Shown here one piece after another: positions 1 through 27,716 of a stretch of DNA of 64,000 bases. Each line of letters opens with the position of its first letter. Position 1 is the stretch's first letter. The position numbers and the translations under genes are program-made. The stretch covers positions 1,979 through 65,978 of the forward strand of contig CAZJQD010000008.1 of assembly GCA_964548165.1 (NCBI GenBank), read 5' to 3'. The stretch comes from an uncultured bacterium. GTDB lineage: Bacteria > UBA8481. The notes under the pieces were generated by a model, which was not told where the DNA came from, did no database searches, and saw nothing but the letters and a program-made list of their open reading frames with translations.

Positions 1-797
1 TTGAGATCCTGGAGTCGACCACGGCGCGCGCCGCGGATCGCGGTGCCGCGCTCGTCGCGTGGAGCGAGACGGTCCTGCTGGAGTATCCCAACCTGCCGGG
101 ATCGGCCGCGCAACGGCTCCAGTCCCTCTCGGATCGGTTAGCCGTCTCCCTGCTCGTGGGCGCCCCCACCTACGTGAGCGCGAACGACAAGCGCAACAGC
201 GCCTACCTGGTCCGCCCGCGACGGAATGGATCGGCTGATTCGACGCTGGTGGCGCCGCGGTTCTCTCGCTACGACAAGGTGCATCTTGTCCCCTTCGGAG
301 AGTTTCTACCCGGATGGGGTCCGGATGACGGGCACGTGATCCTGCCCGAGGGAACCGGAGACTTCAGCCCGGCCGCGCACGTGCATCCGATCCAGGGGAT
401 CGGACCGCTCATCTGCTACGAGGGGGCGTTACCGAACCTGGCGCGCGACCAGGCCCAGGCTGGGGCTCGGCTCCTGGCCAACCTCGCGAATGATGCCTGG
501 ACGCACAGCTCCGTGGAGGCTGAACAGCACTATCGTCTCTCGCTCCTCAGGGCCGTCGAGAATGGGCGCCCGCTGGTACGCGCTGGGAACGTCGGGCGGA
601 GCGCGCTTGTCCGGGCGGACGGGACTGTTGTCGAGACCCTGGCGCCCGGGGAGCGAGGGGTCCTGGTGGGAGACCTCGCCCTGGCCGCGGATCGCACGGT
701 CTACACGCGTTTCGGGGATTGGGTCGGCTGGCTCTGCCTCCTGGGGACGCCGTTCTCCTTGACAGTCGGCGGCAAGCGCTGGGATCATTCACCTTGA
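1..797 (+). CDS. lnt: apolipoprotein N-acyltransferase (Lnt), C-terminal CN-hydrolase part; 5' end lies outside window
   Basis: Frame-3 ORF is open to the window start (…EILESTTARAADRGAALVAWSETVLLEYPNLPG… precedes the first Met at 156). Nitrilase/CN-hydrolase-type domain with the Lnt-typical segment DKVHLVPFGEFLP. Stop TGA at 795-797. Confidence 0.75.
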   Translation, partial: EILESTTARAADRGAALVAWSETVLLEYPNLPGSAAQRLQSLSDRLAVSLLVGAPTYVSANDKRNSAYLVRPRRNGSADSTLVAPRFSRYDKVHLVPFGEFLPGWGPDDGHVILPEGTGDFSPAAHVHPIQGIGPLICYEGALPNLARDQAQAGARLLANLANDAWTHSSVEAEQHYRLSLLRAVENGRPLVRAGNVGRSALVRADGTVVETLAPGERGVLVGDLALAADRTVYTRFGDWVGWLCLLGTPFSLTVGGKRWDHSP

Positions 798-798
798 T

Positions 799-1992
799 AT
801 GCTGAAAGTCCTCACCGTCAGTACCAATATCAGTGCCGGTCACCGCCGCGCGGCTGAGGCCGTGGGCCAGGCGATCCAGGCCGCGGCTCCGGGTTCCGTC
901 ATCGCCGCCCGCGACGCCATGGAACTGATCGGTGAGCGGCGACGTCGCCTCCTGACCGACACCTACCTGGGGATCCTGCGCCAGCAACCGGATTTCTGGA
1001 ACTTTCTCTACCACCAGCGCTGGTTGAAGGGGCCCATCCTGGGCATGAACCGGCTCTTCCTGGGGAGCGCCCCCGAGCGTTTCGTGGAGATGGTTGATGC
1101 CTTCGGGCCCGATGTCATCATCTGCACCCAGGCGATCCCGGCGCGTATCCTGGCCGACCTGAAGCTGGACGGCCGTATCGCGGCGCCCATCCTCTCGGTG
1201 GCCACCGATTACGGCATTCACCCCTATTGGGCGCATCCGGGCATCGACTGGTTTGCGGTTCCCAGCAACACGGCGCGCGAGGAACTGGCCGCGGACGGAG
1301 TCGCGCGTCGCAAGGTCTCGGTCACGGGAATTCCCGTCCACGCCGTCTTCGAGAACCCGCCAACCCGCGAGGACGCGCGTCGCTCGCTCAACCTGCCTGA
1401 GACCGGAAAGCTGGTCCTGGTGATGGGGGGTGGCAATGGGCTCGGGATCACGGCGTCGGATGTGGCGGCGCTGGAGCGGACCCCGGGCGTGACGGGGGTC
1501 ATCCTCATTGCCGGATGCAACGAGCGCCTCCTCGATGAGGCCGCGGCGACCCCGCGGGTGCCGGGGGTGACGCGCGTCGTACGGGCGACGGTCTCGGGTA
1601 TCGAACGCTACTATGCCGCCTGTGATCTCCTCGTCTCCAAGCCCGGCGGGCTCACCATGTCCGAGGCGACCGCGATCGGCCTGCCGATCGTCATGATAGC
1701 GCCGTTGCCTGGGCAGGAGGTTCGCAACGCGGATTTCCTATGTCGCGCGGGCGCCGCGGTCTGGGCTCGTTCCAACGCGGAGATGACGGGGATCGTGTTC
1801 CGATTGATGAGCGATGAGGCGCGGATCGAGGAGTTGGCCCGGGGATCGGCTGCCGTGGGCCGGCCGACGGCCGCCCGAGACATCGCGCGCATGGTCCTGG
1901 AGCTGGCGGGACTCCGCGCAGAGATCTCCGATAGCGCGGAGCCACGGTTGGCCGCTCTCAGCCCGCTTCCTTCCTCCGCCCTCGCGCGCTGA
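799..1992 (+). CDS. MGDG-synthase-family glycosyltransferase (GT28, UgtP/processive diacylglycerol glycosyltransferase-like)
   Basis: ATG lies 1 nt after the lnt stop. C-terminal GT28/MurG-type nucleotide-sugar motifs (GGGNGLG … SKPGGLTMSEA … GLPIVMIAP). N-terminal region typical of MGDG_synth-like glycolipid synthases. Confidence 0.7.
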   Translation: MLKVLTVSTNISAGHRRAAEAVGQAIQAAAPGSVIAARDAMELIGERRRRLLTDTYLGILRQQPDFWNFLYHQRWLKGPILGMNRLFLGSAPERFVEMVDAFGPDVIICTQAIPARILADLKLDGRIAAPILSVATDYGIHPYWAHPGIDWFAVPSNTAREELAADGVARRKVSVTGIPVHAVFENPPTREDARRSLNLPETGKLVLVMGGGNGLGITASDVAALERTPGVTGVILIAGCNERLLDEAAATPRVPGVTRVVRATVSGIERYYAACDLLVSKPGGLTMSEATAIGLPIVMIAPLPGQEVRNADFLCRAGAAVWARSNAEMTGIVFRLMSDEARIEELARGSAAVGRPTAARDIARMVLELAGLRAEISDSAEPRLAALSPLPSSALAR

Positions 1993-2076
1993 ACTCCTTC
2001 GTTCGCCCCCGCGCGCGCCCTCGCGCGCGCCCTCGCGGGGATCGCGCCGCCGCGGCGTGATCGGTAGTTCGCTCCA

Positions 2077-2880
2077 GTGAACCTGTTTCTTCGTTCCTGC
2101 GCGCGCCTGGCGCCGCTTCTCGGGCCGGCGAAGGCCGCTCATCTACTCGGGGGCGCCGCATCGATGGCCGCGGGTCTTGTGCCGGCGCGGCGCGTGATTC
2201 GCGCCAACCGCGCCTACTTCGGCCTACCGGGCGCCCACGGCGAGCGCGACGCGGCCGTCCTCGGTCACTTCGGCGCCTATCTCGGCGAGTTTCTCGGCGC
2301 GGCCGGAGATCCGGGGCGACTCGACGGCATGGTGGCGGCTGAGCAGTTCGCGGCCCTCGACGCGGTCGTGGCCGCGAAGCGAAGCGTCGTCGTGGTCACG
2401 CCCCACCTCGGGAACTGGGAGATTGGCTCCTGGGCCCTGGAGAGGCACAGCCCCGGGACCGTGATGCTCCTGCGCAAGACCGGCGACCCGGTCCTGGACG
2501 CGGCCTTTCGCCGGTCGCGGGGCCAGCGAGCGGTCATCGACGTGACCGAGGGCGTCCGCCCCCTGGTCGCGGCGCTCAAGGCGGGGAGGGTGGTCGCGGC
2601 TGCCATCGACGAGCCCCGGGATCACGGGATCGACGTGGCGTTCCTGGGCCGCGTGGTTCGCTTTCCCGCGCCGCTCTTTCGGATCGTCGCGGACGCGAAG
2701 GCGCTCGTCCTCCCGGCCCGCTGTCGCCGGCTAGCGCGTGGGCGGATCGCCGTTGAGGTCAGTGGCCCCGTCACGGATACCGGCCCGCGAGAGACGGCGC
2801 AGGCCGTCGCCGATGTGTTTAGCGCGTGGATTCGCGAGGATCCGGATCAGTGGATGATGCTGGGGGAGTTTCGGAATTGA
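2077..2880 (+). CDS. lysophospholipid / lipid A-type acyltransferase (LpxL/HtrB-LPLAT superfamily)
   Basis: GTG start. HtrB/LpxL-family catalytic HLGNWE (H-X4-E) motif. About 267 aa, same strand, 84 nt after the glycosyltransferase. Confidence 0.65.
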   Translation: MNLFLRSCARLAPLLGPAKAAHLLGGAASMAAGLVPARRVIRANRAYFGLPGAHGERDAAVLGHFGAYLGEFLGAAGDPGRLDGMVAAEQFAALDAVVAAKRSVVVVTPHLGNWEIGSWALERHSPGTVMLLRKTGDPVLDAAFRRSRGQRAVIDVTEGVRPLVAALKAGRVVAAAIDEPRDHGIDVAFLGRVVRFPAPLFRIVADAKALVLPARCRRLARGRIAVEVSGPVTDTGPRETAQAVADVFSAWIREDPDQWMMLGEFRN

Positions 2881-2939: not shown

Positions 2940-3767
2940 ATGCGGCGTTATTTCCCTCATGTTTCCTTGACGGTTCTGGGGATTTCCACAGCCCTCTTGG
3001 TGTCATCCGCCATGACTTACAGGTTATCGGCGATCCCGGCTCCCTCGAGCGCGGTCGGAGCGCTTTCGCTTGCTATGCCTGCGCCGTCCGGCGCATTCAA
3101 TCCGGAGAAGAATCTCTTCGGTGCGGCGCTGGAACCCGAGCCGGCGCCGACGGCAACGGTTGCCGCCCCGCCCGCGACGCCTCCCGGCAAGTTGCTCGTC
3201 GTCGGCATCATGCAGGGCGGCGCACGATCATCGGCCATCATCCGTAACCTCGCGGCCGATTCGGTATCTGTCTTTCAGCAGGGAGCCTGGGTCTTTGGGC
3301 GCTCGGAATACCTGGCGCGCGTGGAGCCCAGCGCCGTGATCCTGGCTGGTCCCTACGGCCGGCGCCGGCTCCTCGTCGGCGTGATGCCGGATGATCAGGC
3401 GCCGATCGTCGAAGCGGCCCGGCCGCCCGCGACCGCGGCCGCCACGCCCGGCATCGAGGTCTCGCGCGCCGAGATCAACGCTTCGGTGCGATCGCCCGAG
3501 GAACTGATCGGAGCGTCGAAGCTGGTCCCGGAGGTTCGCGACGGGCGGATCGTCGGGATCCGGATCACGGTCGTCGCCGAGAACTCCATCGTGAAGAAGA
3601 TGGGCATGGAGCCCAACGACATCATCAAGGCCGTCAACGGGCAGGCCCTCGACTCACTCGAGCGGTCCACGCAGGTCTGGGAGCAGGCCAAGAAGGCGCC
3701 GGAACTGCACATGCTGGTGGAGCGGGCGGGACAGGAGCGGACGATGTCCTACTATCTCCGGCCATGA
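2940..3767 (+). CDS. gspC: type II secretion system protein C-like (N-terminal TM anchor, C-terminal PDZ domain)
   Basis: N-terminal MRRYFPH + TM helix VSLTVLGISTALLVSSA. C-terminal PDZ-like RIVGIRITVVAENSIVKKMGMEPNDIIKAVNGQALDS. Stop overlaps the gspD start (ATGA). Confidence 0.6.
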   Translation: MRRYFPHVSLTVLGISTALLVSSAMTYRLSAIPAPSSAVGALSLAMPAPSGAFNPEKNLFGAALEPEPAPTATVAAPPATPPGKLLVVGIMQGGARSSAIIRNLAADSVSVFQQGAWVFGRSEYLARVEPSAVILAGPYGRRRLLVGVMPDDQAPIVEAARPPATAAATPGIEVSRAEINASVRSPEELIGASKLVPEVRDGRIVGIRITVVAENSIVKKMGMEPNDIIKAVNGQALDSLERSTQVWEQAKKAPELHMLVERAGQERTMSYYLRP

Positions 3768-6496
3768 CCGCCGGCGCGCGGAGAATCCCGGGTCGGGCGG
3801 TGATCCTGGCGCTTTTCGTCCCGCTGGTCCTCTTGACATCGGGCCAGCCGGCGGCTGTTGCCGAGGCCCCGGTGACAGGCGCGCCTGGGAGCGGCGCGGC
3901 CGCGAGCCATGACGCGTCGGTCCAGCTGGCCGAGGCCCAGATGGCGGCCGCGCGCAGCGAGGCCGCGGCCGGCCGCTACGAGGCCGCCCTGGCCGCCTAC
4001 GACGCGCTCGCCGCCGGCGGCGGTCCGGGCGCCGATGCCGCGCTCTTCCAGAAGGGGCTCCTGCTCTTCTCCCGCCTTCGTCGTTTTCCCGACGCCATCG
4101 CCGTCTTCGAGGACGTGCCGCGCCGGTTCCCGGACTCGCCGCAGGCCGACGATGCCTACTACTACGCGGGGTTCGTGGCCCAGTTTCATCTCCGCGATGC
4201 CGATCGCGCGGTGGCCCTGTACCGCGCCGGGTACGCGGCATACCCGGGCGGCGACTATCGCTGGGCGCTGGCCGACAAGATCCGCGAGCTGACAGGCCGG
4301 TCGCCGGCGGAACTGGAGCGGGGGACCTTGCCGCGCGATACATCCCTGGTGCCCCAGGGCGTCGTGTACCAGGGCGGGGACGCGGCGATGCGCCGCCCGT
4401 CACCGACGACGGACGTCTCGGAGAGCGCGCCCCTTCGCCCGCGCGCGGCGCGCGAGATCCTGATGCAGTTCGACAAGGCGCCGATCCGGACCTTCGTGCA
4501 GTGGATGGCCACGGTCACGGGTCGCAACTTCATCGTCGACGACGACATCGCGGGCGAGATCACCGTCTTCTCGGGCCGCGCGATCCCGATCGCCGAGGTC
4601 TACCGCGTCTTCCTCTCGATCCTCGAGGTGAAGGGGTTCGCCGCCGTGGAATCGGGCGACGTCATCAAGATCGTCGCGCGCGGTTCGGCCGCCCAGTTCG
4701 AGCTCCCGATCGTCCTCGACGAGGATGGATTCGTGCCCACGGACCGCGTGGTGACGCGCATCTTCCGGCTGCGCACCGTGGGCGCCGCGGGCGCCCAGAC
4801 GCTGTTGAGGCCCTTCCTGGCCCCGACGGACCAGCTCGTCTCCTCGGCCGACGCCAACACGCTCATCGCCACGGGCCCCGGCATCAACATCGCCCGGCTC
4901 GCCGAGCTCATCGCGCTCATCGACAACCAAAGGTCGCCGCTCGTCGTGCGCAGCTACCGCATTCAGTACGCGCGCGCCGCCGCTATCGCGGACAAGATCG
5001 GGCTCCTGGCCGGAGCGTTGACTCCGCCGGGTGCGACCGCGCCGCCCTTGAAGATCCTGCCGGACGAGCGGACCAACATGCTCCATGTGCTCGCGGACGA
5101 CGCGTTGCAGACCGAGGTGCGTCGGCTCGTCCTGGAGTTCGACGTGGACCGGACCACCGAGCGGCTGATGCGCGTCTTTCCGCTGGGGTACGCGCGCGCC
5201 GAGGAGGTCGTGAAGCAGCTGCGGCAACTGCTCGGCCTGGAAGCCCTGGAGAGCGCGGCCGATTACGGCGGCATCACGCAGACGGTCATCCTCGCGGATG
5301 CCCGCCTCAACGCGGTCTCCGTGGCCACCTATACCCCGCGCGTCCTCGACATGATCGACTCCTACATCCGAACGATCGATCATCCGCCCGCGGACGCGCT
5401 CCGACGCATGCATGTCCTGCGCCTGCAGAACGCCGAGGCCGCGCTCCTGGCCGAGATGCTCAACAAGATCTACGGCTCCTCGACCTCGACGACGGGTGCG
5501 CCGACCGCGGGCGCAGCGAACCCGGCGGGGCTCGCCGACCAGGTGATCATCACCGCCGATCAGCGCACGAACTCCTTGATCGTCACCTGCACGGACGTGG
5601 ACTGGCAGAAGCTCGAGCGCCTGATCGCGGATCTCGATGTCCGCAAGAAGCAGGTCCTCATCGACGCCGTCGTCCTCGAGACGAACCTCGACGAGGCCCG
5701 CTCCCTGGGCGTGACCCTGGGCTCGGCCGACCAGCCGCTGGAAGGTCACACGCGCGTCGCGGTCCGGAGCGATCCGATCGGGTTCCTGCCGACCTACCAG
5801 GCCCTGGTCGCCCAGGGCGGGCTCACCGTCGGCGTCGTCCGCGGCCAGCTCGTCGCCGGCATGCTCAATGCCCTCCTCAGCTCCTCCCGCACCAACGTCC
5901 TGCAGATGCCGCAGATCCTGGCCTTGGACAACGAGGTGGCGACGCTGAAGGTCGGCAACCTCACGCCGATCGTGACCTCGCGTTCCGTCGGCGGCGCCAA
6001 CATCCAGATCGGCGGATCGAGCTCGGTCTTCCAGAACGTGGAGTATCGCAACATCGGCTTGAACGTGACCCTTCGCCCGCACATCGGGGACCGCGGAGAC
6101 ATCCTCATCGAGTCCCGCATCGAGATCCAGAATCGCAACCTCCAGGCGGAGGCGGGGCTCGACCTCCCGGTCTTCACGTCTCGCGAGATCGAGCAGAAGT
6201 TCCAGATCAACGATGGCGAGTACATCGTGCTCGGCGGGTTGCTGAGGACCCAGGACGACGCCACCCAGCGCGAGACGCCGTGGCTCTCGCGGGTTCCGCT
6301 CATCGGCACGCTCTTCAAGTCCTCGCGGAACTCGGAGTCGAAGACGGTACTCCTCATCTTCCTGAGGCCTCGCGTCGTCACCGACGAAGAGACGGCTCGC
6401 GTCGTCACGGAGGAGGAGCGCCTGCAGTACGAGGCCGAGGCTCGCCAGCGGCCGGGCCAGTCGACGACCGAGGCCAGCCGGTGGATCCGGCCCTGA
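3764..6496 (+). CDS. gspD: type II/IV secretin (GspD/PilQ family) with an extra N-terminal TPR (YbgF/BamD-like) domain
   Basis: Signal/TM, then ~200 aa Ala/Tyr-rich TPR-like region (…YYYAGFVAQFHLRDADRAVALYRAGYAAYPGGDYRWALADKI…). N0 domain (FDKAPIRTFVQWMATVTGRNFIVDDDIAGEITVF). Secretin core (TNSLIVTCTDVDWQKLERLIADLDVRKKQVLIDAVVLETNLDEARSLGV). C-terminal GGLLRTQDDATQRETPWLSRVPLIGTLFKSSRNSESKTVLLIFLRPRVV. 910 aa. Confidence 0.85.
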   Translation: MTAGARRIPGRAVILALFVPLVLLTSGQPAAVAEAPVTGAPGSGAAASHDASVQLAEAQMAAARSEAAAGRYEAALAAYDALAAGGGPGADAALFQKGLLLFSRLRRFPDAIAVFEDVPRRFPDSPQADDAYYYAGFVAQFHLRDADRAVALYRAGYAAYPGGDYRWALADKIRELTGRSPAELERGTLPRDTSLVPQGVVYQGGDAAMRRPSPTTDVSESAPLRPRAAREILMQFDKAPIRTFVQWMATVTGRNFIVDDDIAGEITVFSGRAIPIAEVYRVFLSILEVKGFAAVESGDVIKIVARGSAAQFELPIVLDEDGFVPTDRVVTRIFRLRTVGAAGAQTLLRPFLAPTDQLVSSADANTLIATGPGINIARLAELIALIDNQRSPLVVRSYRIQYARAAAIADKIGLLAGALTPPGATAPPLKILPDERTNMLHVLADDALQTEVRRLVLEFDVDRTTERLMRVFPLGYARAEEVVKQLRQLLGLEALESAADYGGITQTVILADARLNAVSVATYTPRVLDMIDSYIRTIDHPPADALRRMHVLRLQNAEAALLAEMLNKIYGSSTSTTGAPTAGAANPAGLADQVIITADQRTNSLIVTCTDVDWQKLERLIADLDVRKKQVLIDAVVLETNLDEARSLGVTLGSADQPLEGHTRVAVRSDPIGFLPTYQALVAQGGLTVGVVRGQLVAGMLNALLSSSRTNVLQMPQILALDNEVATLKVGNLTPIVTSRSVGGANIQIGGSSSVFQNVEYRNIGLNVTLRPHIGDRGDILIESRIEIQNRNLQAEAGLDLPVFTSREIEQKFQINDGEYIVLGGLLRTQDDATQRETPWLSRVPLIGTLFKSSRNSESKTVLLIFLRPRVVTDEETARVVTEEERLQYEAEARQRPGQSTTEASRWIRP

Positions 6497-6518: not shown

Positions 6519-7991
6519 GTGACCCTCTTTCGCGAGTCTGCCGATCCCGCGCTCATTCGGCGTTTCCCCCGCGAGTTCCTGCTCTCGTCGGCCGTCGTGC
6601 CCTTGCGCGAGGAGGACGGCGTCGTCGTCGTCGTGGGTGCGCCCGAGGCGCGGGGAGCGGCGGAAGAGATCGGGTCGGTATTGGAGAAGCCTGTCCGGTT
6701 CACGCCCGGTGATCCCCGGGACATCCGCCGGTTCGTCACCGAGAAGTACGACGCGGGCGGGGGCGGCCGGCAGGAGGCCATCGACGAGCTCGAGCGCGAG
6801 GGCAGGGACGTGCGCGAGCTCGAGGAGCTGGCCAACGAGGCACCGGTCGTGAGGCTCGTGGGGGCCGTCCTCCAGGCGGCCCGGGAGCGCGGCGCTTCGG
6901 ACGTCCACATCGAGCCGCACGACGACGAGAGCGTGATCCGGTTCCGGGTTGACGGCGTTCTGGCCGAGCACGATCGCCTGCCGCGAGGTCTCCACCGCGG
7001 CGTCGTCTCGCGCATCAAGATCATGTCGCGCCTCGATATCGCCCAGACGCGGCTCCCGCAGGACGGCCGGATCACCGTGACGTCGGGGGGGAAGGAACTG
7101 GACCTCCGGGTCTCGACGATCCCGACGCCGCAGGGCGAACGCGTGGTGCTGAGGCTCCTGGAGCGCGGATCGGTCCGGAGGGGGCTGGGAGAGCTTGGCT
7201 TCACGGAATCGCTCCTGCCCCTCTGGCACGACCTCCTCGCGAATCCCCACGGCATCATCCTCGTGACCGGTCCCACCGGCAGCGGCAAGACGACGACGCT
7301 CTACGCCGCTCTCGACATCCTGCACACGGGCAAGGTCAACATCCTGACGGTCGAGGACCCGGTCGAGTACCAGATCGAGGGGATCGGGCAGATCCAGGTG
7401 AACCCGAAGATCAACCTGACCTTCGCCTCGGGCCTGCGCGCGATCCTGCGCCAGGATCCGGACGTCATCATGGTAGGCGAGATCCGCGACGAGGAGACGG
7501 CCGTCATCGCCGTGCAGTCCGCGCTCACCGGCCACCTCGTGCTCTCGACCCTCCACACCAACGATGCGCCGTCCGCGCTGCCGCGCCTGGTGGACATGGG
7601 CGCCGAGCCGTACCTGCTGGCGTCGAGCGTGCGCGGCGTGTTGGCGCAGAGGTTGGTGCGCCGTCTCTGCCCCCACTGTCGTCGGTCCCGCGCGGCAACG
7701 CGCGAGGAGGCCGCGTGGATGGGGGCTGATCACGTCGGCGTGACGCTCTATGATCCTGGCGCGTGCGAGCATTGCGCGGGCGTCGGATTCCGCGGCCGCA
7801 CGGGCCTCTTCGAGCTGATGCCGGTCACGGATGCGCTTCGCCCGCTCATCATGCAGAAGGCCTCGGCCTCGGCGCTCAGGCAGGCCGCGGCCGCGGAGGG
7901 CTTCCACTCGCTTCGCGAGGATGGGCGACGCGTGGTGGCGGCGGGCATCACCACGATCGCGGAGGTCGTGCGAGTCACCGAGGATATCTAG
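6519..7991 (+). CDS. gspE: type II secretion ATPase GspE (PilB/GspE family, canonical motifs intact)
   Basis: GTG start 22 nt after gspD. Walker A GPTGSGKTTT, Asp box EDPVEY, Walker B IMVGEIRDEET, His box LVLSTLHTNDA, tetracysteine CPHC…CEHC. Confidence 0.9.
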   Translation: MTLFRESADPALIRRFPREFLLSSAVVPLREEDGVVVVVGAPEARGAAEEIGSVLEKPVRFTPGDPRDIRRFVTEKYDAGGGGRQEAIDELEREGRDVRELEELANEAPVVRLVGAVLQAARERGASDVHIEPHDDESVIRFRVDGVLAEHDRLPRGLHRGVVSRIKIMSRLDIAQTRLPQDGRITVTSGGKELDLRVSTIPTPQGERVVLRLLERGSVRRGLGELGFTESLLPLWHDLLANPHGIILVTGPTGSGKTTTLYAALDILHTGKVNILTVEDPVEYQIEGIGQIQVNPKINLTFASGLRAILRQDPDVIMVGEIRDEETAVIAVQSALTGHLVLSTLHTNDAPSALPRLVDMGAEPYLLASSVRGVLAQRLVRRLCPHCRRSRAATREEAAWMGADHVGVTLYDPGACEHCAGVGFRGRTGLFELMPVTDALRPLIMQKASASALRQAAAAEGFHSLREDGRRVVAAGITTIAEVVRVTEDI

Positions 7992-8129: not shown

Positions 8130-8155
8130 CTAGAGTGCCCATCTACTCGTATCGA
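8130..8155. repeat. copy 2 of the duplicated 26-nt motif; overlaps the gspF start codon
   Basis: See 7987-8012. Encodes the N-terminus VPIYSY of GspF. Copy 1 opens a 46-codon ORF (VPIYYSRP…) that ends at the TAG of this copy. Confidence 0.6.
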
Positions 8156-9340
8156 GCCGTGCAGGGCGGGCGGACGACGCGTGGCGAGATTGCCGCGGAG
8201 AACGAGCGGCAGGCGCGAGCGCTGATCCGGGAGTCGGGTGCGACCCCGGTTTCCATCGCGGCGAAGACCTCGGAACGCGCGCGTCCCCCCGACCTGGCCT
8301 GGCTTGCCGCGTTCACGCGACAGCTCGGCACCCTCCTGAAGGCGGGATTCCCCCTCGATCGCGCGCTCACGACGCTCGCCGGGTCCGCACCGGATCCGCG
8401 CGCGCGCACCGTCCTGGCCGCGCTGGATGATGGTGTGAGGCGGGGGCAGAGGTTTTCGGACGCGGCGGCACGGGCCTTCTCGACGGCATCGATGGGCGGC
8501 GTCGGCGCCGCCTCGGAACTGGTCGCGATCCTCGAGGCGGGCGAGGCCGCGGGCGACCTGGCGCCGGTCCTGCTCAACTACGCCGAGATGCTCGACCGGC
8601 GGCTCGTCTTCCGCCGTCGCCTCCGCGGCGCGCTCTTCTATCCGCTCATCGTCGCCGGCATGGCCGTCCTCGTCGTGGCCTTCCTCTTCGTCTACGTGGT
8701 GCCCACGATCACGAGGCTCTTCGAGGGAACGAACCTCCCGCTCCCCTTGCCGACGAGGATCCTGATCGTCGTGGCCAATGCCGTCCAGGCCGGCTGGATG
8801 CCCGGGATCGCGGTGCTCCTGGTCGCGGCCTGGTTCCTGAAGCGGTGGATGGCCACGGCGCAGGGGAGGCTCAGCGTTGAGGCGCGCCTGCAGTCCCTGC
8901 CGGTGATCGGATCCATCCTGGCGCAGGCGGCGGGCGCCCGGTGGCTCCGCACGTTCGGGACGCTCCTGGGGAACGGCGTCGAGATCCTCTCGGCGCTCGA
9001 CATCGCCGGACGCACGGCGGCCTCGCCGCGCCTGCAGAAGGCCGTGGCGAGAGCGAGGCCGCGCGTTGCGGAGGGGGTTCCGCTGGCCAAGGCCCTGGCG
9101 GAGACGGGCGCGTTTCCCGCGGTCGCGGTGGAGGCCGTCACGCTCGGCGAGAGTTCGGGCACCCTGCCGCACCTCCTCCTGGAACTGGCGGCGGCGTGGG
9201 AGGGCGAGGTCGAGACGTCGGCGGAGCGATTCGCCGATCTTCTGGAGCCCCTGGTGCTCGTCGTGATGGGCGTCCTGGTCGGCGGCATCGTGCTGGCCGT
9301 TCTCCTGCCCATCTTCGAGTTCAACGCCTCGGTGCGGTAG
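8135..9340 (+). CDS. gspF: type II secretion system inner-membrane platform protein GspF (GspF/PilC family)
   Basis: GTG start. About 400 aa with two GspF-type repeats and three TM segments (…LIVAGMAVLVVAFLFVYVVPTI…, …GVLVGGIVLAVLLPIFEF…). Confidence 0.85.
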   Translation: MPIYSYRAVQGGRTTRGEIAAENERQARALIRESGATPVSIAAKTSERARPPDLAWLAAFTRQLGTLLKAGFPLDRALTTLAGSAPDPRARTVLAALDDGVRRGQRFSDAAARAFSTASMGGVGAASELVAILEAGEAAGDLAPVLLNYAEMLDRRLVFRRRLRGALFYPLIVAGMAVLVVAFLFVYVVPTITRLFEGTNLPLPLPTRILIVVANAVQAGWMPGIAVLLVAAWFLKRWMATAQGRLSVEARLQSLPVIGSILAQAAGARWLRTFGTLLGNGVEILSALDIAGRTAASPRLQKAVARARPRVAEGVPLAKALAETGAFPAVAVEAVTLGESSGTLPHLLLELAAAWEGEVETSAERFADLLEPLVLVVMGVLVGGIVLAVLLPIFEFNASVR

Positions 9341-13341: not shown

Positions 13342-13374
13342 CCCCGGCGGCCGCGAGGTCGCCGGGGTTTTTTT
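13342..13374 (+). terminator. Rho-independent terminator (8-bp GC stem ccccggcg/cgccgggg, 10-nt loop, T7 tract)
   Basis: Stem 13342-13349 / 13360-13367, followed by ttttttt 13368-13374. Lies 18 nt after the small-ORF stop and abuts the stop codon of the convergent ppiD-like gene. Confidence 0.6.
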
Positions 13375-14890
13375 ATCGCTGTTCCATCCGGCTCCGGACA
13401 CTCTCGGCGTAGACGATGTCAGCTCGCTTCCGGAGCGCGTCGAGCCAGTCCCTGTAGAGCTGGTTCTTGAGGAAGTCGCGGTACTCACGCTCGGTGCTGA
13501 CCCGGAAGTTGTCCCAGAGGTCCGGATTTCCACCGCGGCGTCGCTCGATGCGGACGACATGGAACCCATGACCGGACTGGATGACGTCCGAGGGCTTACC
13601 TACCTCCAGGTCGAAGACGGCGCGCGTGATGGCGGGGTCCAGGACGATGCTGCGGCCCGTGCCGAAGTTGCCCACTTCCGAGCCGATCCGTTCCAGGCTC
13701 CCGCTGTCCGGATACAGCTCCGGGGTCATCTCCCCGGGGATGACGTCCCCGAGAAGGCCCCCGTTGGACGCCGACTTGCCGCTGGAAAATTGGCGGGCCA
13801 GGGCGGCGAAGTCCGCGCCCTCGGCGATCCGGCGCCGCAGGTCTTCGGCCAATGCCTTGGCGCGGGCGACTTCGCTGTCGCCCGACAGGGTGTTGCGGAT
13901 GCCGTCCGCCACGTCCGCGTAGGCCTGCCGGTGAGGCATCTCGTGGGCATCGAAGAGCGCGATGTGGTAACCGAACTCGGTCTCGATGATCTCGGTCGGG
14001 ATCCCGACGGGCCAGTTGAAGGCCACCGTGTCGAATGCGGGGACCATCTGCCCGCGCTGGAACCAGTCCAGCTCCTCGGCGTGAGCGGGGGACATCGTGT
14101 CCGCCTTGAACTGCGCGAAGAGGCGGCCGAAGTTCTCGCCCGCGCGCAGTCTCAGGAGGAGGGCTTCCGCCCGCGAGCGAGCGGCGAAGCGCTGTTCCGC
14201 GTCGGCGCCGGGAGCGAGCCGGAAGAGGATGTGGCGACCTCGGACACGCTCGCCGATGATGAAGGAGTCCCCGTGAGCGTCGTAATAGGCTTTCGCGTTC
14301 GCCTCGGCCACGAACGAGCCGGGCCGGACCAGGATGTGCCTCAAGAGCGCGCGCTGGTAACGGAGATTGTAGTAGTCGCGCAGTTCCTCGGGGGTGACGA
14401 CGACGCTGCCGGAAACCCAGTTGTAGACCTTCCACTGGGTGATGTCCTCGCCGATCACCTTTTCATAGGCCGCCCACTGGGAAGCCGGGAGGTCGCGGCG
14501 GGCGCGGGCAAAACGGCCCAGGTCGAGGTTGCCGTCCTCGTTGCGGAAGAGCCGTTCCCGGGTCTGATCGACGATCTCGTGATCGGTTGCCCGGAGCTTG
14601 AGGCGCTCGGCTTCCTGCATCGCGAGCCGCGCGCCCACGAGCTCGTCGACGACGGTCTTGTAGAGCTTCTGCTGGTCGGTCTCGGTCAGGTTGCCGGCGT
14701 TCTCGAGCCGCTGGCCGTAGGCGCGGTCGACTTCCTCGAAGCTGATCTCGTCGCCGTTGACCTTGACCGCGTAGGGGGTGCCCCGCGTGTCGCTGACATT
14801 GGCTCCCCATTCAAGGATGATGGTCGCCACGAAGGCCAGGACGAGCGCTATGACTCCCCACTTGGCCATATTTCTAAATTTCTGGAGCAT
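13373..14890 (-). CDS. periplasmic chaperone / peptidyl-prolyl isomerase, PpiD/SurA (parvulin) family
   Basis: True start MLQKFRNMAKWGVIALVLAFVAT (N-terminal TM anchor), 505 aa; the 1031-aa track ORF is an antisense artefact over the next gene. Parvulin domain (…GRHILFRL…FGYHIALF…). SurA/PpiD-like chaperone regions. Confidence 0.75.
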   Translation of the reverse strand: MLQKFRNMAKWGVIALVLAFVATIILEWGANVSDTRGTPYAVKVNGDEISFEEVDRAYGQRLENAGNLTETDQQKLYKTVVDELVGARLAMQEAERLKLRATDHEIVDQTRERLFRNEDGNLDLGRFARARRDLPASQWAAYEKVIGEDITQWKVYNWVSGSVVVTPEELRDYYNLRYQRALLRHILVRPGSFVAEANAKAYYDAHGDSFIIGERVRGRHILFRLAPGADAEQRFAARSRAEALLLRLRAGENFGRLFAQFKADTMSPAHAEELDWFQRGQMVPAFDTVAFNWPVGIPTEIIETEFGYHIALFDAHEMPHRQAYADVADGIRNTLSGDSEVARAKALAEDLRRRIAEGADFAALARQFSSGKSASNGGLLGDVIPGEMTPELYPDSGSLERIGSEVGNFGTGRSIVLDPAITRAVFDLEVGKPSDVIQSGHGFHVVRIERRRGGNPDLWDNFRVSTEREYRDFLKNQLYRDWLDALRKRADIVYAESVRSRMEQR

Positions 14891-14959
14891 GACCAAAGAG
14901 CGTAGCTCAACGGGTTCCTCGCGGCAACAGCGTTGCGCATCGGGCGCGGGGAGCAGAGA

Positions 14960-16231
14960 ATGGCCGCGATGCGTGTCGCGAATCGCAAGTGGTGGCGGAC
15001 CGAGCCATCCGGGGGAGGCGCTCCCGGCGGGGGCGGAGGCGGGGGGCGCCGCAGGAACGGCGAGCCGCCCTGGACGCGCCTCGTCGACTGGCTGACCGGC
15101 CTCGATACGGCGGCCGCCGTCATGCTGGCGATCGGCGTCGGCCTCCTCACGGCCGTCGCGCTCTATCTCTATCCTCCCTGGCATACGGCGCCGCGAGGGG
15201 CTCCGCCCGCGCTCGACGTGAGGGAGACGCGGCAGAGGCTGGCCGAGGACCCGCTCGACTACGCGACCCGTCTGGAGTTCGCGCGGTATTACCTCCAGTG
15301 GGGCCTGGCCGTCTCGCGGCGGCAGGCGCCGATGGATGACACCATGACAGACTCGGAGATGTACGCCTACTTCGAGGGGCGGCTCCAGGAGTGGGAGAAG
15401 CTGGGCGAGAACGTCTCGGGCCTGCGCGACATGCTCAGGCGGGACTTCGCCGCTTTCCGGACCCGCTTCGTGACCGAGGAACGGGCGGTCTCCAAGGGCA
15501 TGTTCGAGCAGGCGGTGCTGCTCTATCGCCAGACGCGCGCGCTCGGCGCCAATCTCTCCGCCCGTGATCTCTACGACCTCGGCACCGCCTACTACCAGAT
15601 GGGTCCGGAAGGCTACGAGGGAGCGGCCCGGTTTCTCGGGGAGGCCGTTGACCGCGGCCTGGTCTCGCCGCGCGCGCTGACGTTTCTCGGCAACGTCGCC
15701 GTCGCTCGCGGAGATTATGACCGCGGCATCGCGCTCTACCTGCAGGCCCTCGACGATGCCCCGGAGGACCCGATTCTCGCCTTCAACCTGGCCCTGGCTT
15801 ACAAGGAGCGGGGCAACTTCGAGCCCGCGATCGAGTACCTGCGGGTGACGCTGCGCCTGTACCAGGACAAGGAGAATCTCGTGGAGGACGAGCTCTCGAT
15901 CATCCTGCAGTCCCGTCTCGCGCTCGGCTGGTGCCTCCTGAAGGTGGGGCGTCACGCGGAGGCGATCGAGCAGTTGGAGACGCTCCTGGAGGGACAGCCT
16001 GACCTGGCGGAGGCCTACTACTGGCTGGGGGTCGCCTACGAGGCCCTGGGCCGCCATGAACTCGCGCGCAGTCACTACCAGCGGGCCGTGCGGTTGCAGC
16101 CCGGGTTCCGGGATGTGAACGAGCGCCTGGCGGCGGTGGAACGCCTCATCGCGGCCGAGCGCGCGGGCGCGACGGGCCGGCCAATCCGGGGCGTGCCCGT
16201 CTCGCGGCAATCCGCGCCCCGCGCCCGCTAG
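14960..16231 (+). CDS. TPR-repeat membrane-anchored protein, hypothetical
   Basis: Start placed at the Met with SD GGGGAG (the track ORF begins at 14933). Gly-rich N-tail, one TM helix (AAAVMLAIGVGLLTAVALYLY), then multiple TPR units (…AEAYYWLGVAYEALGRHELARSHYQRAVRLQP…). Confidence 0.5.
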   Translation: MAAMRVANRKWWRTEPSGGGAPGGGGGGGRRRNGEPPWTRLVDWLTGLDTAAAVMLAIGVGLLTAVALYLYPPWHTAPRGAPPALDVRETRQRLAEDPLDYATRLEFARYYLQWGLAVSRRQAPMDDTMTDSEMYAYFEGRLQEWEKLGENVSGLRDMLRRDFAAFRTRFVTEERAVSKGMFEQAVLLYRQTRALGANLSARDLYDLGTAYYQMGPEGYEGAARFLGEAVDRGLVSPRALTFLGNVAVARGDYDRGIALYLQALDDAPEDPILAFNLALAYKERGNFEPAIEYLRVTLRLYQDKENLVEDELSIILQSRLALGWCLLKVGRHAEAIEQLETLLEGQPDLAEAYYWLGVAYEALGRHELARSHYQRAVRLQPGFRDVNERLAAVERLIAAERAGATGRPIRGVPVSRQSAPRAR

Positions 16232-16247
16232 ACGCACGCCGCGCCCG

Positions 16248-17138
16248 ATGATGCCACGGCTCCAGATTCTCTTCGCGTTTCTCCTCTGGTCCACGACCGG
16301 TCCCCTGGTGCGAGCCGCGGACCTGCCCGTCGCCAACTTCATCACGATCGCGAACGCGGCCGGCCTCGGATTTCTTCTCCTCATCTTCGGCCGCCGCATC
16401 GTCGGAGGTCTTGGCGCCCTCCCGCGCGGGCCCATGCTCAGGCTCTGCCTGGGCGGCATCGTCAACATCTGGAGCTCGTACGTCGCGTTCTCCTATACCT
16501 CGGTCGCGAACGTGATCCTCTTTCACTACGTTGCACCCGTTCTCGTAGCCGTCGCGGCGCCGATGCTCTTGAGGGAGAGACCCGAGCCCGGAACGTGGCT
16601 GGCCCTTGGGCTCGCGTTCATCGGGCTCGTCGTGTCCGCGTGGCAGGACGTGGCCGTGGGTGGGCGTCGCGACCTCGTGGGCATCGCGCTCTCCCTGGTC
16701 TCGGCGTTTGGATACGCGCTGGCCATCCTGGAGTCGCGGACCGTCGCGCGCGCGGGATGCGATCCGTTCGCGGTCGTGATGATCCAGGCCGGTTCGCTCT
16801 CGATCGTCACGCTCCCGCTCATCCACTGGACGGCATGGCCCCTCGAGGGAACCCTCCTGGGGGCGCTGGCCGGCGTTCTGCACCTGACGATCGCCGCGGG
16901 CTTCTACCTGGTCGGGCTCCGTCGCGTGCCCGCCTCCACCGGCGCGGTCCTGGGGTACAGCGAGATCGTCTTCGGGCTCTTCTGGGGTGCCGTTCTCTTC
17001 GGGGAACCAGTCACTGTCTGGAAGATCGTGGGGTCGACCGCCATCGTCGGCGCCGGGTTGATGCTCGTTCGCACCACGAAGTTTTCGAGTTCTCCTGGGC
17101 CGGAAAATGCGTCGCCGGCTCCCATCAACCCGACCTGA
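16248..17138 (+). CDS. DMT-superfamily (EamA-like) transporter
   Basis: About 10 predicted TM helices in two EamA-like halves. 296 aa. Confidence 0.7.
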   Translation: MMPRLQILFAFLLWSTTGPLVRAADLPVANFITIANAAGLGFLLLIFGRRIVGGLGALPRGPMLRLCLGGIVNIWSSYVAFSYTSVANVILFHYVAPVLVAVAAPMLLRERPEPGTWLALGLAFIGLVVSAWQDVAVGGRRDLVGIALSLVSAFGYALAILESRTVARAGCDPFAVVMIQAGSLSIVTLPLIHWTAWPLEGTLLGALAGVLHLTIAAGFYLVGLRRVPASTGAVLGYSEIVFGLFWGAVLFGEPVTVWKIVGSTAIVGAGLMLVRTTKFSSSPGPENASPAPINPT

Positions 17139-26888: not shown

Positions 26889-27716
26889 ATGGCGTCGAGA
26901 GGCGACAAGAAGGGGACAGCGCGGGACCGCCGACAGCGTCCAGGCGACGAGGAGGACGTGGCGCCCGCGGCCGCGGCCCCCGCAAGTTCACCGGTCTCCC
27001 GCTGGCGTCGCCTTCTGCTGGCGTTTGCCGGCCTCGTCCTGCTGATCGGTTCGACCGCCTTTGCCGGGGCCTGGATGGGTATCCGGTCGGTGGAAACCTC
27101 GATCAATCATGGGCCCCAGGAGGTCGAAGAGGACGAGAGCGCGAGCCTGCCGCAACTGACTCTGACGCGCGGCCTGGACATTTCGATGGAGCGCTCGCTT
27201 CCCAGGCAGGGCGGGGAGGATCGTTTCCTGAGGGGACTGGTCAACTGGCGGCCCGGGGGTCGATTATCCGAGTCGGCCCCGCAGTCACCGGTGACCCCGG
27301 ATCAGGAGGCGGACGTCGAGCGCCCGATGGTGCCGCGCCCGCTGGCGGACACGCGCGTGGATCGGGACCCGTCCATCATCAGCGCCGCGGCGGAGCGAGC
27401 GGGGAGGCTGGGGGGTGCTGAACCGATCCGCGCTCCTCGCGCCATCGCCGGCGCGCGTACGCCGGCCGAGACCGGTGCGACGGTCCCGGGCAATCCCGGC
27501 GCCGTCTTGCCTGATGCGAGCCCCCAGTACGGGGTTCCAGCCTCGACAATATCTCCTCCCTCCGTCTACAATGACGCGGTCGGCGAGGCTGGGCGGCGCT
27601 CTCCTGTTCCCTACGCGGCTGAATACGCGCCCCCGCTCATGCCACCGCCCGTTGACGCTTCGCCCTTGGAATCCGGGGATGACCCGGGTTGGCGCCAGCG
27701 AGGACTCGTACCTTGA
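26889..27716 (+). CDS. hypothetical Pro-rich membrane-anchored protein
   Basis: One TM helix (RWRRLLLAFAGLVLLIGSTAFAGAWMGI), GC3-rich coding statistics, no recognised domain. Lies directly upstream of the polysaccharide export block. Confidence 0.35.
   Translation: MASRGDKKGTARDRRQRPGDEEDVAPAAAAPASSPVSRWRRLLLAFAGLVLLIGSTAFAGAWMGIRSVETSINHGPQEVEEDESASLPQLTLTRGLDISMERSLPRQGGEDRFLRGLVNWRPGGRLSESAPQSPVTPDQEADVERPMVPRPLADTRVDRDPSIISAAAERAGRLGGAEPIRAPRAIAGARTPAETGATVPGNPGAVLPDASPQYGVPASTISPPSVYNDAVGEAGRRSPVPYAAEYAPPLMPPPVDASPLESGDDPGWRQRGLVP

What the first reader, a model, noticed from the sequence alone, without database searches (positions are those of the whole stretch)
3764..4400. Secretin carries a ~200-aa N-terminal TPR (YbgF/BamD-like) domain ahead of N0: possible built-in pilotin
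Between the signal/TM segment and the N0 domain (FDKAPIRTFVQWMATVTGRNFIV…) lies an Ala/Tyr-rich region with TPR-like periodicity (…YYYAGFVAQFHLRDADRAVALYRAGYAAYPGGDYRWALADKI…). Secretins normally rely on separate TPR lipoprotein pilotins (PilF/PilW/Tgl-type) for outer-membrane targeting. A covalent fusion would be an unusual self-piloting arrangement. It makes this GspD 910 aa.
Basis: partly seen in the sequence, partly recalled or inferred. Interest (0 to 1): 0.55.

Follow-up and report, generated by a model that had tools for sequence, protein, structure and literature searches.

The report
Secretin with a built-in TPR domain
A type II secretion outer-membrane channel protein (GspD) from a rare bacterial lineage really does carry an extra, well-folded TPR protein-binding domain at its front end, but that domain lacks the lipid anchor that defines the "pilotin" helpers, so its role is still open.

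Summary
ORF 3764-6496 (+) is a 910-aa GspD secretin in a gspC-D-E-F operon. Residues 51-186 form a three-repeat TPR domain (Pfam TPR_16 above its cut-off; AlphaFold pLDDT 96.7). A 37-75-aa disordered linker joins it to N0.

It is not a gene-merge artefact. All 14 homologues (53-100% identity) keep one ORF. The only signal peptide precedes the TPR. The start codon overlaps the gspC stop. An independent assembly gives the identical protein.

The TPR pilotins PilF, PilW and TadD are not among the matches.

The "built-in pilotin" reading is only partly supported. No homologue has a lipobox cysteine, so Lol-type piloting is excluded. A chaperone-like assembly role remains possible.

My best guess (about 0.4) is a flexibly tethered periplasmic docking module below N0, placed like the AMIN domains of PilQ or the TPRs of BcsC/PgaA.

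The family is rare and appears confined to Hydrogenedentota-like genomes. A separate, much larger family of lipobox-TPR-secretin fusions turned up, so TPR-secretin fusion as such is not unique. I rate this a new variant of a known kind, of moderate interest.

The parts
2940..3767 (+). gspC-like gene (275 aa): an HR-like region plus a C-terminal PDZ domain. Its stop codon overlaps the gspD start (ATGA).
   Evidence: Pfam T2SSC scores 24.2 bits, below its cut-off; PDZ scores 23.6 bits. NCBIfam GspC_delta scores 93 bits (cut-off 150) and TIGR01713 scores 55 bits. It is 42% identical to the gene upstream of gspD in L001. The sequence is shown.
3764..6496 (+). Whole gspD ORF, 910 aa: signal peptide, TPR, linker, N0, N1-N3, secretin domain and C-terminal tail.
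   Evidence: TIGR02517 GspD equivalog scores 433 bits against a cut-off of 351. GC3 is 0.82-0.96 in this frame throughout.
3764..3862 (+). Sec-type signal peptide, aa 1-33. It has Arg-rich n-region, the hydrophobic stretch AVILALFVPLVLL, and AVA|EA as likely cleavage site. There is no cysteine, so it is not a lipoprotein signal.
   Evidence: Sequence. No lipobox in any of the 14 homologues.
3863..3913 (+). Low-complexity Ala/Gly/Pro spacer, aa 34-50. It is poorly conserved.
   Evidence: Alignment. Mean pairwise identity is 0.17 for aa 1-50.
3914..4321 (+). TPR domain, aa 51-186: three TPR hairpins (helices 51-68/72-85, 90-103/108-121, 127-141/146-159), a capping helix (166-177) and a short helix (181-186). 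It is of the YbgF/BamD type.
   Evidence: Pfam TPR_16, TPR_6 and TPR_14. AlphaFold pLDDT 96.7. PDB sequence and fold matches to CpoB/YbgF and BamD. Conservation rises from 0.31 in TPR1 to 0.64 in TPR3 plus cap.
4322..4393 (+). Variable disordered linker, aa 187-210. Across homologues, the whole distance from the TPR to N0 is 37-75 aa.
   Evidence: pLDDT below 50. Mean pairwise identity 0.14, with length variation.
4394..4459 (+). Conserved, clade-specific motif just before N0, aa 211-232. The consensus is RRxPPETDVxETAPxRPRxA. Its role is unknown.
   Evidence: Alignment. Mean pairwise identity 0.55. It is not folded in the AlphaFold model. It is absent from non-TPR GspDs.
4460..4678 (+). N0 domain, aa 233-305.
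   Evidence: PF21305 at 77 bits. AlphaFold gives a beta-alpha fold with pLDDT 81-87.
4679..5863 (+). N1-N3 region, containing four Secretin_N stretches.
   Evidence: PF03958 at 133 bits.
5873..6379 (+). Secretin (outer-membrane channel) domain, aa 704-872.
   Evidence: PF00263 at 125.6 bits.
6380..6496 (+). C-terminal tail, aa 873-910, in the position of an S-domain. It ends in the clade-specific motif [ST]E.[DE][KRQ]W[IL], 2-5 residues from the C-terminus. The range includes the stop codon.
   Evidence: The outgroup C-termini lack the motif.
6519..7991 (+). gspE, the secretion ATPase.
   Evidence: PF00437 at 457 bits, plus MshEN.
8135..9340 (+). gspF, the inner-membrane platform protein.
   Evidence: PF00482 at 176.5 bits.

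Best explanation
The gene encodes a complete GspD-type type II secretion secretin with an added N-terminal module. That module is a non-lipidated, three-repeat TPR domain of the YbgF/BamD type, joined to N0 by a flexible 37-75-residue tether.

Shown:
- The domain is real and is exported with the secretin.
- It is conserved in every member of the clade.
- It is under purifying selection about as strong as on N1-N3.
- It carries no lipid anchor.

Inferred:
- The TPR precedes N0, which is the inner-membrane-proximal end of a secretin, so the assembled multimer would carry one TPR per subunit hanging on leashes around its base. The subunit number was not determined here; published GspD channels are 15-mers.
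- There the TPR acts as a peptide-binding docking module that ties the secretin to a periplasmic or inner-membrane partner. Candidates are a component of the assembly platform or an envelope-spanning or cell-wall-associated machine of the kind that YbgF/CpoB binds.
- This would help position or stabilise the channel. It would parallel the N-terminal AMIN domains of PilQ and the N-terminal TPR scaffolds of the BcsC, PgaA and PelB outer-membrane channels.

It is not a Lol-dependent pilotin. The partner is not identified.
For: - Domain reality and type: Pfam TPR_16 above its cut-off; AlphaFold pLDDT 96.7; CpoB/YbgF and BamD are the best sequence and fold matches.
- Tether: aa 187-226 are disordered, and the TPR is not predicted to pack on N0 (two-domain pTM 0.51). 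Linker length varies among homologues.
- One exported polypeptide: the only signal peptide lies upstream of the TPR; 14 of 14 homologues have a continuous ORF; an identical protein appears in an independent Logan assembly; the ATGA overlap with gspC is also seen in L083.
- Selection: mean pairwise identity is 0.64 for TPR3 plus cap, against 0.56 for N1-N3 and 0.14 for the linker.
- No lipobox in any of the 14 homologues.
- Positional precedent: AMIN domains N-terminal to N0 recruit and anchor PilQ (PMC10653833).
- The BcsC TPR appears among the PDB profile matches (5xw7, E 1.6e-4).
- YbgF/CpoB acting as a periplasmic adaptor of the Tol system is established knowledge, not tested here.
Against: - No partner was identified.
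- Apart from gspE and gspF, no neighbouring gene is invariably linked. The gspC-like gene is adjacent in only three of six loci.
- TPR folds are promiscuous, so similarity to YbgF and BamD says little about the ligand.
- The best-documented functional link between TPR proteins and secretins is piloting or assembly, which favours the rival explanation.
- The clade-specific C-terminal motif could be an in-cis ligand for the TPR.
- The two-domain AlphaFold model (aa 50-320) gave no high-confidence contact between the TPR and N0 or the linker, so the structure gives no hint of the interaction surface.
Confidence: 0.4

Rival explanations
1. Built-in, lipid-independent assembly chaperone (a 'pilotin-like' function without the lipid). 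Before assembly, the TPR groove binds a segment of the same or a neighbouring secretin monomer. Candidate segments are the conserved C-terminal tail or the unfolded beta-lip. This keeps the monomer soluble and assembly-competent and promotes multimerisation or hand-over to the outer membrane, possibly via BAM. It would replace a separate pilotin.
For: - Known TPR partners of secretins are pilotins. TadD binds the last 4-5 residues of RcpA in its groove (PMC10499894). Tgl, PilF and PilW are proposed to hold the unfolded beta-lip (PMC10653833).
- The clade has its own conserved near-C-terminal motif [ST]E.[DE][KRQ]W[IL], which non-TPR GspDs lack.
- No pilotin-like gene lies in or next to the operon. 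The small ORFs checked are not lipoproteins.
- An independent family fuses lipobox, TPR and secretin. This shows that covalent TPR-secretin linkage is selected elsewhere.
- The region of BamD that matches is its N-terminal half. From memory, that is the half that binds substrate targeting signals.
Against: - No lipid anchor in any of the 14 homologues.
- The TPR is at the opposite end of the protein from the S-domain position. In the shortest homologue the tether is only about 37 aa, so contact in the assembled state would need a nearly fully extended linker.
- No specific similarity to PilF, PilW or TadD.
- The TPR domain is net acidic (-2 to -11) and the C-terminal motif is also acidic.
- The co-occurrence of motif and TPR rests on a single clade and is not independent evidence.
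Confidence: 0.3
2. Cargo-side module. The TPR ring recruits or guides secreted substrates, either folded exoproteins or a polymer, into the secretin vestibule. It would be comparable to the TPR scaffolds of the exopolysaccharide channels BcsC, PgaA and AlgK, or would complement the PDZ domain of GspC.
For: - The architecture 'N-terminal TPR plus outer-membrane channel' is standard for BcsC and PgaA. BcsC is among the PDB matches. PgaA TPR acting as a scaffold is described in PMC9384988 (listed; I did not read it).
- T2SS secretins have been implicated in slime or polymer export (PMC12475490).
- The gspC-like gene and its PDZ domain are variably present next to gspD.
Against: - There are only three repeats, far fewer than in the polysaccharide scaffolds.
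- The neighbouring genes are a standard gspC/E/F set.
- The polysaccharide export cluster in the window (27415-34981) has its own Wza-type exporter.
- There is no direct evidence for any substrate.
Confidence: 0.12
3. Artefact: a separate upstream TPR gene has been merged with gspD by a sequencing, assembly or annotation error, or the extension is non-functional.
For: None was found. In-frame internal start codons do exist (aa 189, 196, 201, 209, 234).
Against: - All 14 homologues down to 53% identity keep one ORF.
- An identical protein comes from an independent assembly.
- The internal Met234 is not conserved (Val or Ile in others).
- A protein starting at an internal codon would have no signal peptide.
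- GC3 is 0.88-0.90 in frame through the TPR and linker.
- The TPR is conserved at the level of N1-N3.
Confidence: 0.02

Closest known systems
GspD, the type II secretion system secretin (TIGR02517)
   Same: It has the N0, N1-N3 and secretin domains followed by a C-terminal tail. It scores above the equivalog cut-off. It sits in an operon with gspC-like, gspE and gspF genes.
   Different: It carries about 230 extra N-terminal residues (signal peptide, spacer, three-repeat TPR, linker). The nearest TPR-less GspDs retrieved are only about 36% identical over 28% of the protein.
TPR lipoprotein pilotins: PilF/PilW/Tgl (type IVa pili) and TadD (Tad pili)
   Same: A TPR fold that is functionally associated with a secretin. 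In TadD the groove binds the secretin C-terminus (PMC10499894).
   Different: Those are separate outer-membrane lipoproteins with five or six repeats. Here there are three repeats and no lipobox. The module is fused at the N0 end. There is no specific sequence or fold match to them.
YbgF/CpoB C-terminal TPR domain (PDB 6g5s, 2xev)
   Same: It is the best natural sequence match (E 7e-11 with the profile). It is a near full-length structural match (TMt 0.77-0.80). It has the same three-repeat size and the same 'FP.S...DA.YY.G' type motif.
   Different: There is no N-terminal coiled coil and no tol-pal gene context. TIGR02795 scores only 19.8 bits against a cut-off of 90.1. The TPR here is a domain of a secretin, not a free periplasmic protein.
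BamD (YfiO)
   Same: TPR type and fold match: profile E 4e-6, Foldseek rank 1 and 3, and a Pfam YfiO match in 2 of 14 members. BamD is an assembly factor for outer-membrane proteins.
   Different: BamD is a five-repeat lipoprotein, and only its N-terminal half aligns. There is no lipobox here.
PilQ N-terminal AMIN domains
   Same: They occupy the same position (between signal peptide and N0) and are joined by flexible linkers. They are accessory domains that position the secretin (PMC10653833).
   Different: AMIN is a peptidoglycan-binding beta fold, not a TPR. No AMIN match was found here.
Lipobox-TPR-secretin(-cohesin) family found here (P0031 and relatives)
   Same: A TPR module lies directly N-terminal to a secretin in one polypeptide.
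   Different: 116 of 119 members have an 'AGC' lipobox immediately before the TPR. They use the TPR_1/2/11 types and have no N0 Pfam match, and many have a C-terminal cohesin domain. They are only 24% identical to the window protein over 30% of it. This looks like an independent fusion. That family, rather than this one, has the full 'lipoprotein TPR pilotin plus secretin' anatomy.
HxcQ-type liposecretins (self-piloting through an N-terminal lipid anchor)
   Same: The concept of a secretin that needs no separate pilotin (cited in PMC12475490).
   Different: Self-piloting in HxcQ depends on the N-terminal lipid anchor, which is absent here.
BcsC, PgaA and PelB: an N-terminal periplasmic TPR fused to an outer-membrane channel
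   Same: The same design principle. BcsC TPR is a PDB match at E 1.6e-4.
   Different: Those channels are monomeric beta-barrels for polysaccharides with many more repeats. This is a multimeric secretin.

Membership tests
GspD (T2SS secretin) | Domain set N0 + Secretin_N repeats + C-terminal Secretin domain | tested here: met
   PF21305 at 77 bits, PF03958 at 133 bits (four stretches), PF00263 at 125.6 bits.
GspD (T2SS secretin) | Score above the curated equivalog cut-off of TIGR02517 | tested here: met
   433 bits against a cut-off of 351.35. The PilQ, MshL and SctC models all score below their cut-offs.
GspD (T2SS secretin) | Encoded with other T2SS core genes | tested here: met
   A gspC-like gene (below cut-off), gspE and gspF are adjacent. 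D-E-F order is conserved in L001, L081, L082, L083 and L084.
GspD (T2SS secretin) | Pseudopilins and GspL/M present, so that the machine is complete | tested here: inconclusive
   No prepilin-type G[FY]TL[IV]E motif was found in any frame of the 64-kb window. The rest of the genome was not available.
TPR superfamily (YbgF/BamD type) | Significant match to TPR profiles, and a helical-hairpin fold | tested here: met
   TPR_16 scores 43-48 bits against a cut-off of 32.7. All 14 members match TPR_16, TPR_6 and TPR_14. The model has seven helices at pLDDT 96.7.
YbgF/CpoB proper | Score above the TIGR02795 cut-off, an N-terminal coiled coil, and tol-pal gene context | tested here: not met
   19.8 bits against a cut-off of 90.1. 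No coiled-coil segment lies before the TPR. The neighbours are gsp genes.
BamD proper | Lipoprotein with five TPRs matching the YfiO profile | tested here: not met
   No lipobox. Three repeats. YfiO is matched by only 2 of 14 members, at E about 1e-3.
TPR pilotin (PilF/PilW/Tgl/TadD) | Outer-membrane lipoprotein: signal peptide ending in a lipobox cysteine | tested here: not met
   None of the 14 homologues has a lipobox. The two with a Cys in the h-region (P0005, P0012) do not fit [LVI][ASTVI][GAS]C.
TPR pilotin (PilF/PilW/Tgl/TadD) | Specific sequence or fold relationship to known pilotins | tested here: not met
   Known pilotins are absent from PDB profile matches at E<=0.01 and from the top 50 Foldseek matches. 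Only generic TPR similarity can be assumed.
TPR pilotin (PilF/PilW/Tgl/TadD) | Binds its secretin and is required for multimerisation or outer-membrane localisation | not testable with these tools
   This needs deletion and fractionation experiments or complex prediction.
Liposecretin (HxcQ type) | N-terminal lipid anchor on the secretin itself | tested here: not met
   No lipobox.
PilQ-type AMIN-bearing secretin | AMIN domain(s) N-terminal to N0 | tested here: not met
   No AMIN match in Pfam. The PilQ model scores 194 bits against a cut-off of 284. The resemblance is positional only.

The most novel reading that the evidence does not exclude
This clade has a new, Lol-independent way of making a secretin self-sufficient. 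A non-lipidated BamD/YbgF-type TPR, fused to the N-terminus, captures the secretin's own clade-specific C-terminal motif or its beta-lip. It acts as an in-cis chaperone or targeting device, possibly handing the protein to BAM. No separate pilotin would then be needed.
Probability: 0.25. Interest if true: 0.6.

Novelty: new variant of a known kind. Interest (0 to 1): 0.38.

Why it matters
How secretins reach and assemble in the outer membrane differs between systems and is still only partly understood. For many T2SS no pilotin is known.

A natural covalent fusion of a TPR module to a GspD is a 'Rosetta stone' type hint that TPR-mediated interactions matter for T2SS secretins too. It also offers a compact construct, one polypeptide, for testing what such a module binds.

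Comparing it with the much larger lipobox-TPR-secretin family found here could separate two contributions to secretin biogenesis: the lipid anchor and the TPR.

If the TPR instead proves to be an anchoring or docking domain, it would be, as far as I found, the first T2SS counterpart of the AMIN domains that localise type IV pilus secretins.

Tried and rejected
- Whole-library HMM search with the TPR profile. The top 150 were almost all ~1000-aa multi-repeat TPR proteins scoring through many stretches. Only one secretin representative (P0009) appeared. The search says only that the TPR type is common, and it gave nothing on other fusions.
- Word-indexed search with the TPR+linker+N0 profile. 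It returned four weak matches and did not even recover the family, so it was uninformative.
- GTDB genome scan with the TPR+N0 profile. The patterns came from N0, so 79 of 80 loci were ordinary GspDs matching N0 only. Only L001 carries the TPR.
- Metagenome scan with TPR-specific patterns. It found two loci, which confirms rarity.
- Literature. I found no paper describing a TPR-secretin fusion, and nothing on Hydrogenedentota T2SS. The library is incomplete, so this is not proof of absence.
- Search for a separate pilotin. Small ORFs next to gspE and gspF in L081 and L082 are not lipoproteins. There is no pilotin-like gene in the window operon.
- Prepilin motif search in the window. It found none.
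- Internal start hypothesis. In-frame starts exist, but none is conserved, and none would provide a signal peptide.
- Electrostatic complementarity between the TPR and the C-terminal motif. Both are acidic, so there is no support from this.
- AlphaFold of TPR+linker+N0. No confident docking of the TPR on N0 or on the pre-N0 motif was predicted. With 14 sequences this is weak negative evidence.
- I considered a full-length or chimeric (TPR plus C-tail) prediction.

Full report
WHAT IS THERE

The window carries a compact operon on the + strand.
- A gspC-like gene lies at 2940-3767. It has an HR-like region and a PDZ domain. It scores below the cut-offs of the GspC models.
- A 910-aa secretin gene lies at 3764-6496.
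- gspE lies at 6519-7991 and gspF at 8135-9340.

The secretin passes the curated GspD equivalog threshold (TIGR02517, 433 bits against 351). It fails the thresholds for PilQ, MshL and SctC. From residue 233 onward it is an ordinary GspD: N0, four Secretin_N stretches, the secretin domain and a 38-residue C-terminal tail. The finding concerns the roughly 230 residues before N0.

CHECK OF THE OBSERVATION

The N-terminal extension has five parts.
- Residues 1-33 are a Sec signal peptide with no cysteine.
- Residues 34-50 are a low-complexity spacer.
- Residues 51-186 are the TPR domain.
- Residues 187-210 are a variable linker.
- Residues 211-232 are a conserved motif just before N0.

Pfam TPR_16 matches residues 61-126 above its gathering score. 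It scores 35 bits on the full protein and 43-48 bits on the isolated region.

AlphaFold2 with a 14-sequence alignment gives seven helices, that is three TPR hairpins plus a cap, at mean pLDDT 96.7 and pTM 0.89. In the longer construct (residues 50-320) the linker (aa 187-226) has pLDDT below 50. N0 folds separately. The overall pTM of 0.51 indicates no fixed orientation between the two domains.

The region is therefore a folded TPR, not a disordered linker. The fold covers about 136 residues rather than about 200.

IS IT ONE GENE?

Five observations say yes.
1. Fourteen homologues (53-100% identity, 861-933 aa) all have signal peptide, TPR, linker and N0 in one ORF. All 14 TPR regions match TPR_16, TPR_6 and TPR_14.
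2. The only export signal lies upstream of the TPR. The in-frame internal starts (aa 189, 196, 201, 209, 234) are not conserved, and none would yield a signal peptide.
3. The gspD start overlaps the gspC stop (ATGA at 3764-3767). The same 4-base overlap is seen at 53% identity in L083.
4. GC3 stays at 0.88-0.90 in this frame through the TPR and linker.
5. An independent Logan assembly encodes the identical 910-aa protein.

Conservation within the clade is graded.
- TPR1: 0.31.
- TPR2: 0.51.
- TPR3 plus cap: 0.64.
- Linker: 0.14.
- Pre-N0 motif: 0.55.
- N0: 0.75.
- N1-N3: 0.56.
- Secretin domain: 0.75.

The TPR is thus under constraint comparable to the canonical periplasmic domains.

WHAT KIND OF TPR?

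By sequence, the best natural match in the PDB is the TPR domain of CpoB/YbgF (6g5s). It scores E 1.3e-5 with the single sequence and 7e-11 with the family profile. BamD from several species follows at about 4e-6, then BcsC at 1.6e-4.

By fold, the top matches are BamD and the Xanthomonas YbgF TPR domain (2xev, TMq 0.73, TMt 0.77-0.80). YfgM, of the PpiD-YfgM complex, is also close.

The NCBIfam YbgF model matches only weakly (19.8 bits against a cut-off of 90.1). PilF, PilW and TadD do not appear among profile matches at E<=0.01 or among the top 50 fold matches.

The protein is a member of neither family. It has no coiled coil, no tol-pal context, no lipobox, and three rather than five repeats.

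DISTRIBUTION AND CONTEXT

The family is small.
- It comprises 14 clusters among 5.8 billion proteins.
- It occurs in one of the GTDB representative genomes returned (L001).
- TPR-specific patterns found it in two JGI metagenome loci.

The one named member is from a Candidatus Hydrogenedentota MAG. The next-best secretins lack the TPR and are only about 36% identical over 28% of the query. The fusion therefore characterises the whole clade.

The invariant neighbours are gspE and gspF. The gspC-like gene is adjacent in the window, L001 and L083, but not in L081, L082 or L084.

Upstream there is a tightly packed trio of genes: Lnt, an MGDG-synthase-like glycosyltransferase, and a lipid-A-type acyltransferase. 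The trio is conserved in the window, L081 and L083. No pseudopilin motif occurs in the window.

THE PILOTIN IDEA

TPR pilotins (PilF, PilW, Tgl, TadD) are outer-membrane lipoproteins.
- TadD binds the last 4-5 residues of RcpA in its groove and is required for secretin assembly (PMC10499894).
- Tgl is proposed to hold the unfolded beta-lip of PilQ transiently (PMC10653833).

Here, none of the 14 signal peptides has a lipobox. Lol-dependent self-piloting, as in liposecretins, is therefore excluded.

The TPR is also at the N0 end. Its tether is 37-75 residues long. The shortest would have to be almost fully extended to reach the S-domain region of an assembled channel. That distance is an estimate from published GspD dimensions, recalled from memory.

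A pre-assembly, in-cis chaperone role is not excluded.
- The clade has its own conserved motif, [ST]E.[DE][KRQ]W[IL], 2-5 residues from the C-terminus. The TPR-less relatives lack it.
- The part of BamD that matches is its N-terminal half.

Against this, both the TPR (net charge -2 to -11) and the motif are acidic. The co-occurrence also rests on a single clade.

MOST LIKELY MECHANISM

I favour, at about 0.4, a tethered docking module. Each subunit of the assembled multimer would contribute one TPR on a flexible leash at the base of the channel. The TPR would bind a peptide of a periplasmic or inner-membrane partner and so position or stabilise the secretin.

The reasoning is inference from anatomy and precedent.
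- The slot between the signal peptide and N0 is where PilQ carries its AMIN localisation domains.
- YbgF/CpoB is a periplasmic adaptor of the Tol system (established knowledge).
- An N-terminal TPR fused to an outer-membrane channel is the scaffold design of BcsC and PgaA.

The self-chaperone rival gets about 0.3. A cargo-side role gets about 0.12. An artefact gets about 0.02. None of the steps beyond 'exported, folded, conserved, non-lipidated TPR on a flexible tether' is shown.

COMPARISON AND NOVELTY

One secretin retrieved in passing (P0031) led to a very large family, mostly from soil metagenomes. It has the architecture lipobox 'AGC', then TPR, then secretin, often with a C-terminal cohesin domain.
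- All 120 best matches, at 70% identity or more, keep this layout.
- 116 of the 119 relatives listed with P0031 have the lipobox.

That family, not this one, has the full anatomy of a lipoprotein TPR pilotin fused to its secretin. It is only distantly related to the window protein (24% identity over 30%), so the two fusions look independent.

I found no paper describing either fusion, but the searchable library is incomplete. TPR-secretin fusion as a class is therefore not unique. The GspD-specific, non-lipidated, YbgF/BamD-type version is a rare new variant of a known kind.

VERDICT

- Interest is moderate (0.38).

Noticed in passing
P0031 and P0185-P0303 (proteins); not in the window: A very large family of secretins, mostly from soil metagenomes, has a lipoprotein signal ('AGC' lipobox in 116 of 119) directly followed by TPR repeats, then the secretin domain, often with a C-terminal cohesin domain. 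This is the anatomy of a covalently built-in TPR lipoprotein pilotin. I found no description of it in the searchable literature.
   Followed up: partly
window 156-2880 (+); also L081 6194-9860 and L083 78-3446: A trio of envelope-lipid genes sits directly upstream of the T2SS genes, with overlapping stops and starts in L083. The genes are Lnt (apolipoprotein N-acyltransferase), an MGDG-synthase-like glycosyltransferase and a lipid-A-type (HtrB/LpxL family) acyltransferase. The trio is conserved at 53-62% GspD identity. It is curious that the lipoprotein-maturation enzyme is co-operonic with a secretin that has no lipid anchor.
   Followed up: partly
window 4394-4459 (aa 211-232 of GspD): A clade-specific conserved motif, RRxPPETDVxETAPxRPRxA, lies immediately before N0. 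It is unstructured in the AlphaFold model and absent from TPR-less GspDs. It could be a short linear motif, for example a ligand of the TPR or of GspC.
   Followed up: partly
window 6467-6493 (last 9 residues of GspD): A clade-specific near-C-terminal motif, [ST]E.[DE][KRQ]W[IL], is followed by 2-5 variable residues. It recalls the C-terminal peptide of RcpA that binds the TadD TPR groove.
   Followed up: partly
P0019, P0021: Some GspD-type secretins (N0 + Secretin_N + Secretin) carry a C-terminal SPOR (septal peptidoglycan-binding) domain. This is another accessory-domain fusion to T2SS secretins.
   Followed up: no
window 41125-42456 (+): A 443-aa protein combines an outer-membrane beta-barrel family match (Phenol_MetA_deg, aa 123-297) with C-terminal TPR repeats (aa 337-430). 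It is a second fusion of TPRs to an outer-membrane protein in the same window.
   Followed up: no
window 45166-48120 (+) and 48188-49747 (+): A 984-aa multi-TPR protein ends in a ComEA-like HHH_3 DNA-binding domain. It is followed by a 519-aa protein with the same HHH_3 domain.
   Followed up: no
window 13373-~14900 (-) and 14933-16231 (+): A PpiD/SurA-like peptidyl-prolyl isomerase lies divergent from a TPR protein with an N-terminal membrane anchor. This layout resembles the PpiD-YfgM pair. The PpiD-like gene lies downstream of gspF in the window, L001 and L081, immediately so only in L001. The listed 1031-aa ORF 13373-16468 (-) is over-extended.
   Followed up: no
window 27415-34981 (+): A polysaccharide export cluster: a Wza-like Poly_export/SLBB protein, two Wzz/GNVR tyrosine-kinase-like proteins and a Wzy_C O-antigen ligase/polymerase-like protein.
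   Followed up: no
window 1-64000: No prepilin-type (G[FY]TL[IV]E) motif occurs in any frame. The pseudopilin genes of this T2SS, and gspL and gspM, must lie elsewhere in the genome or be very divergent.
   Followed up: partly
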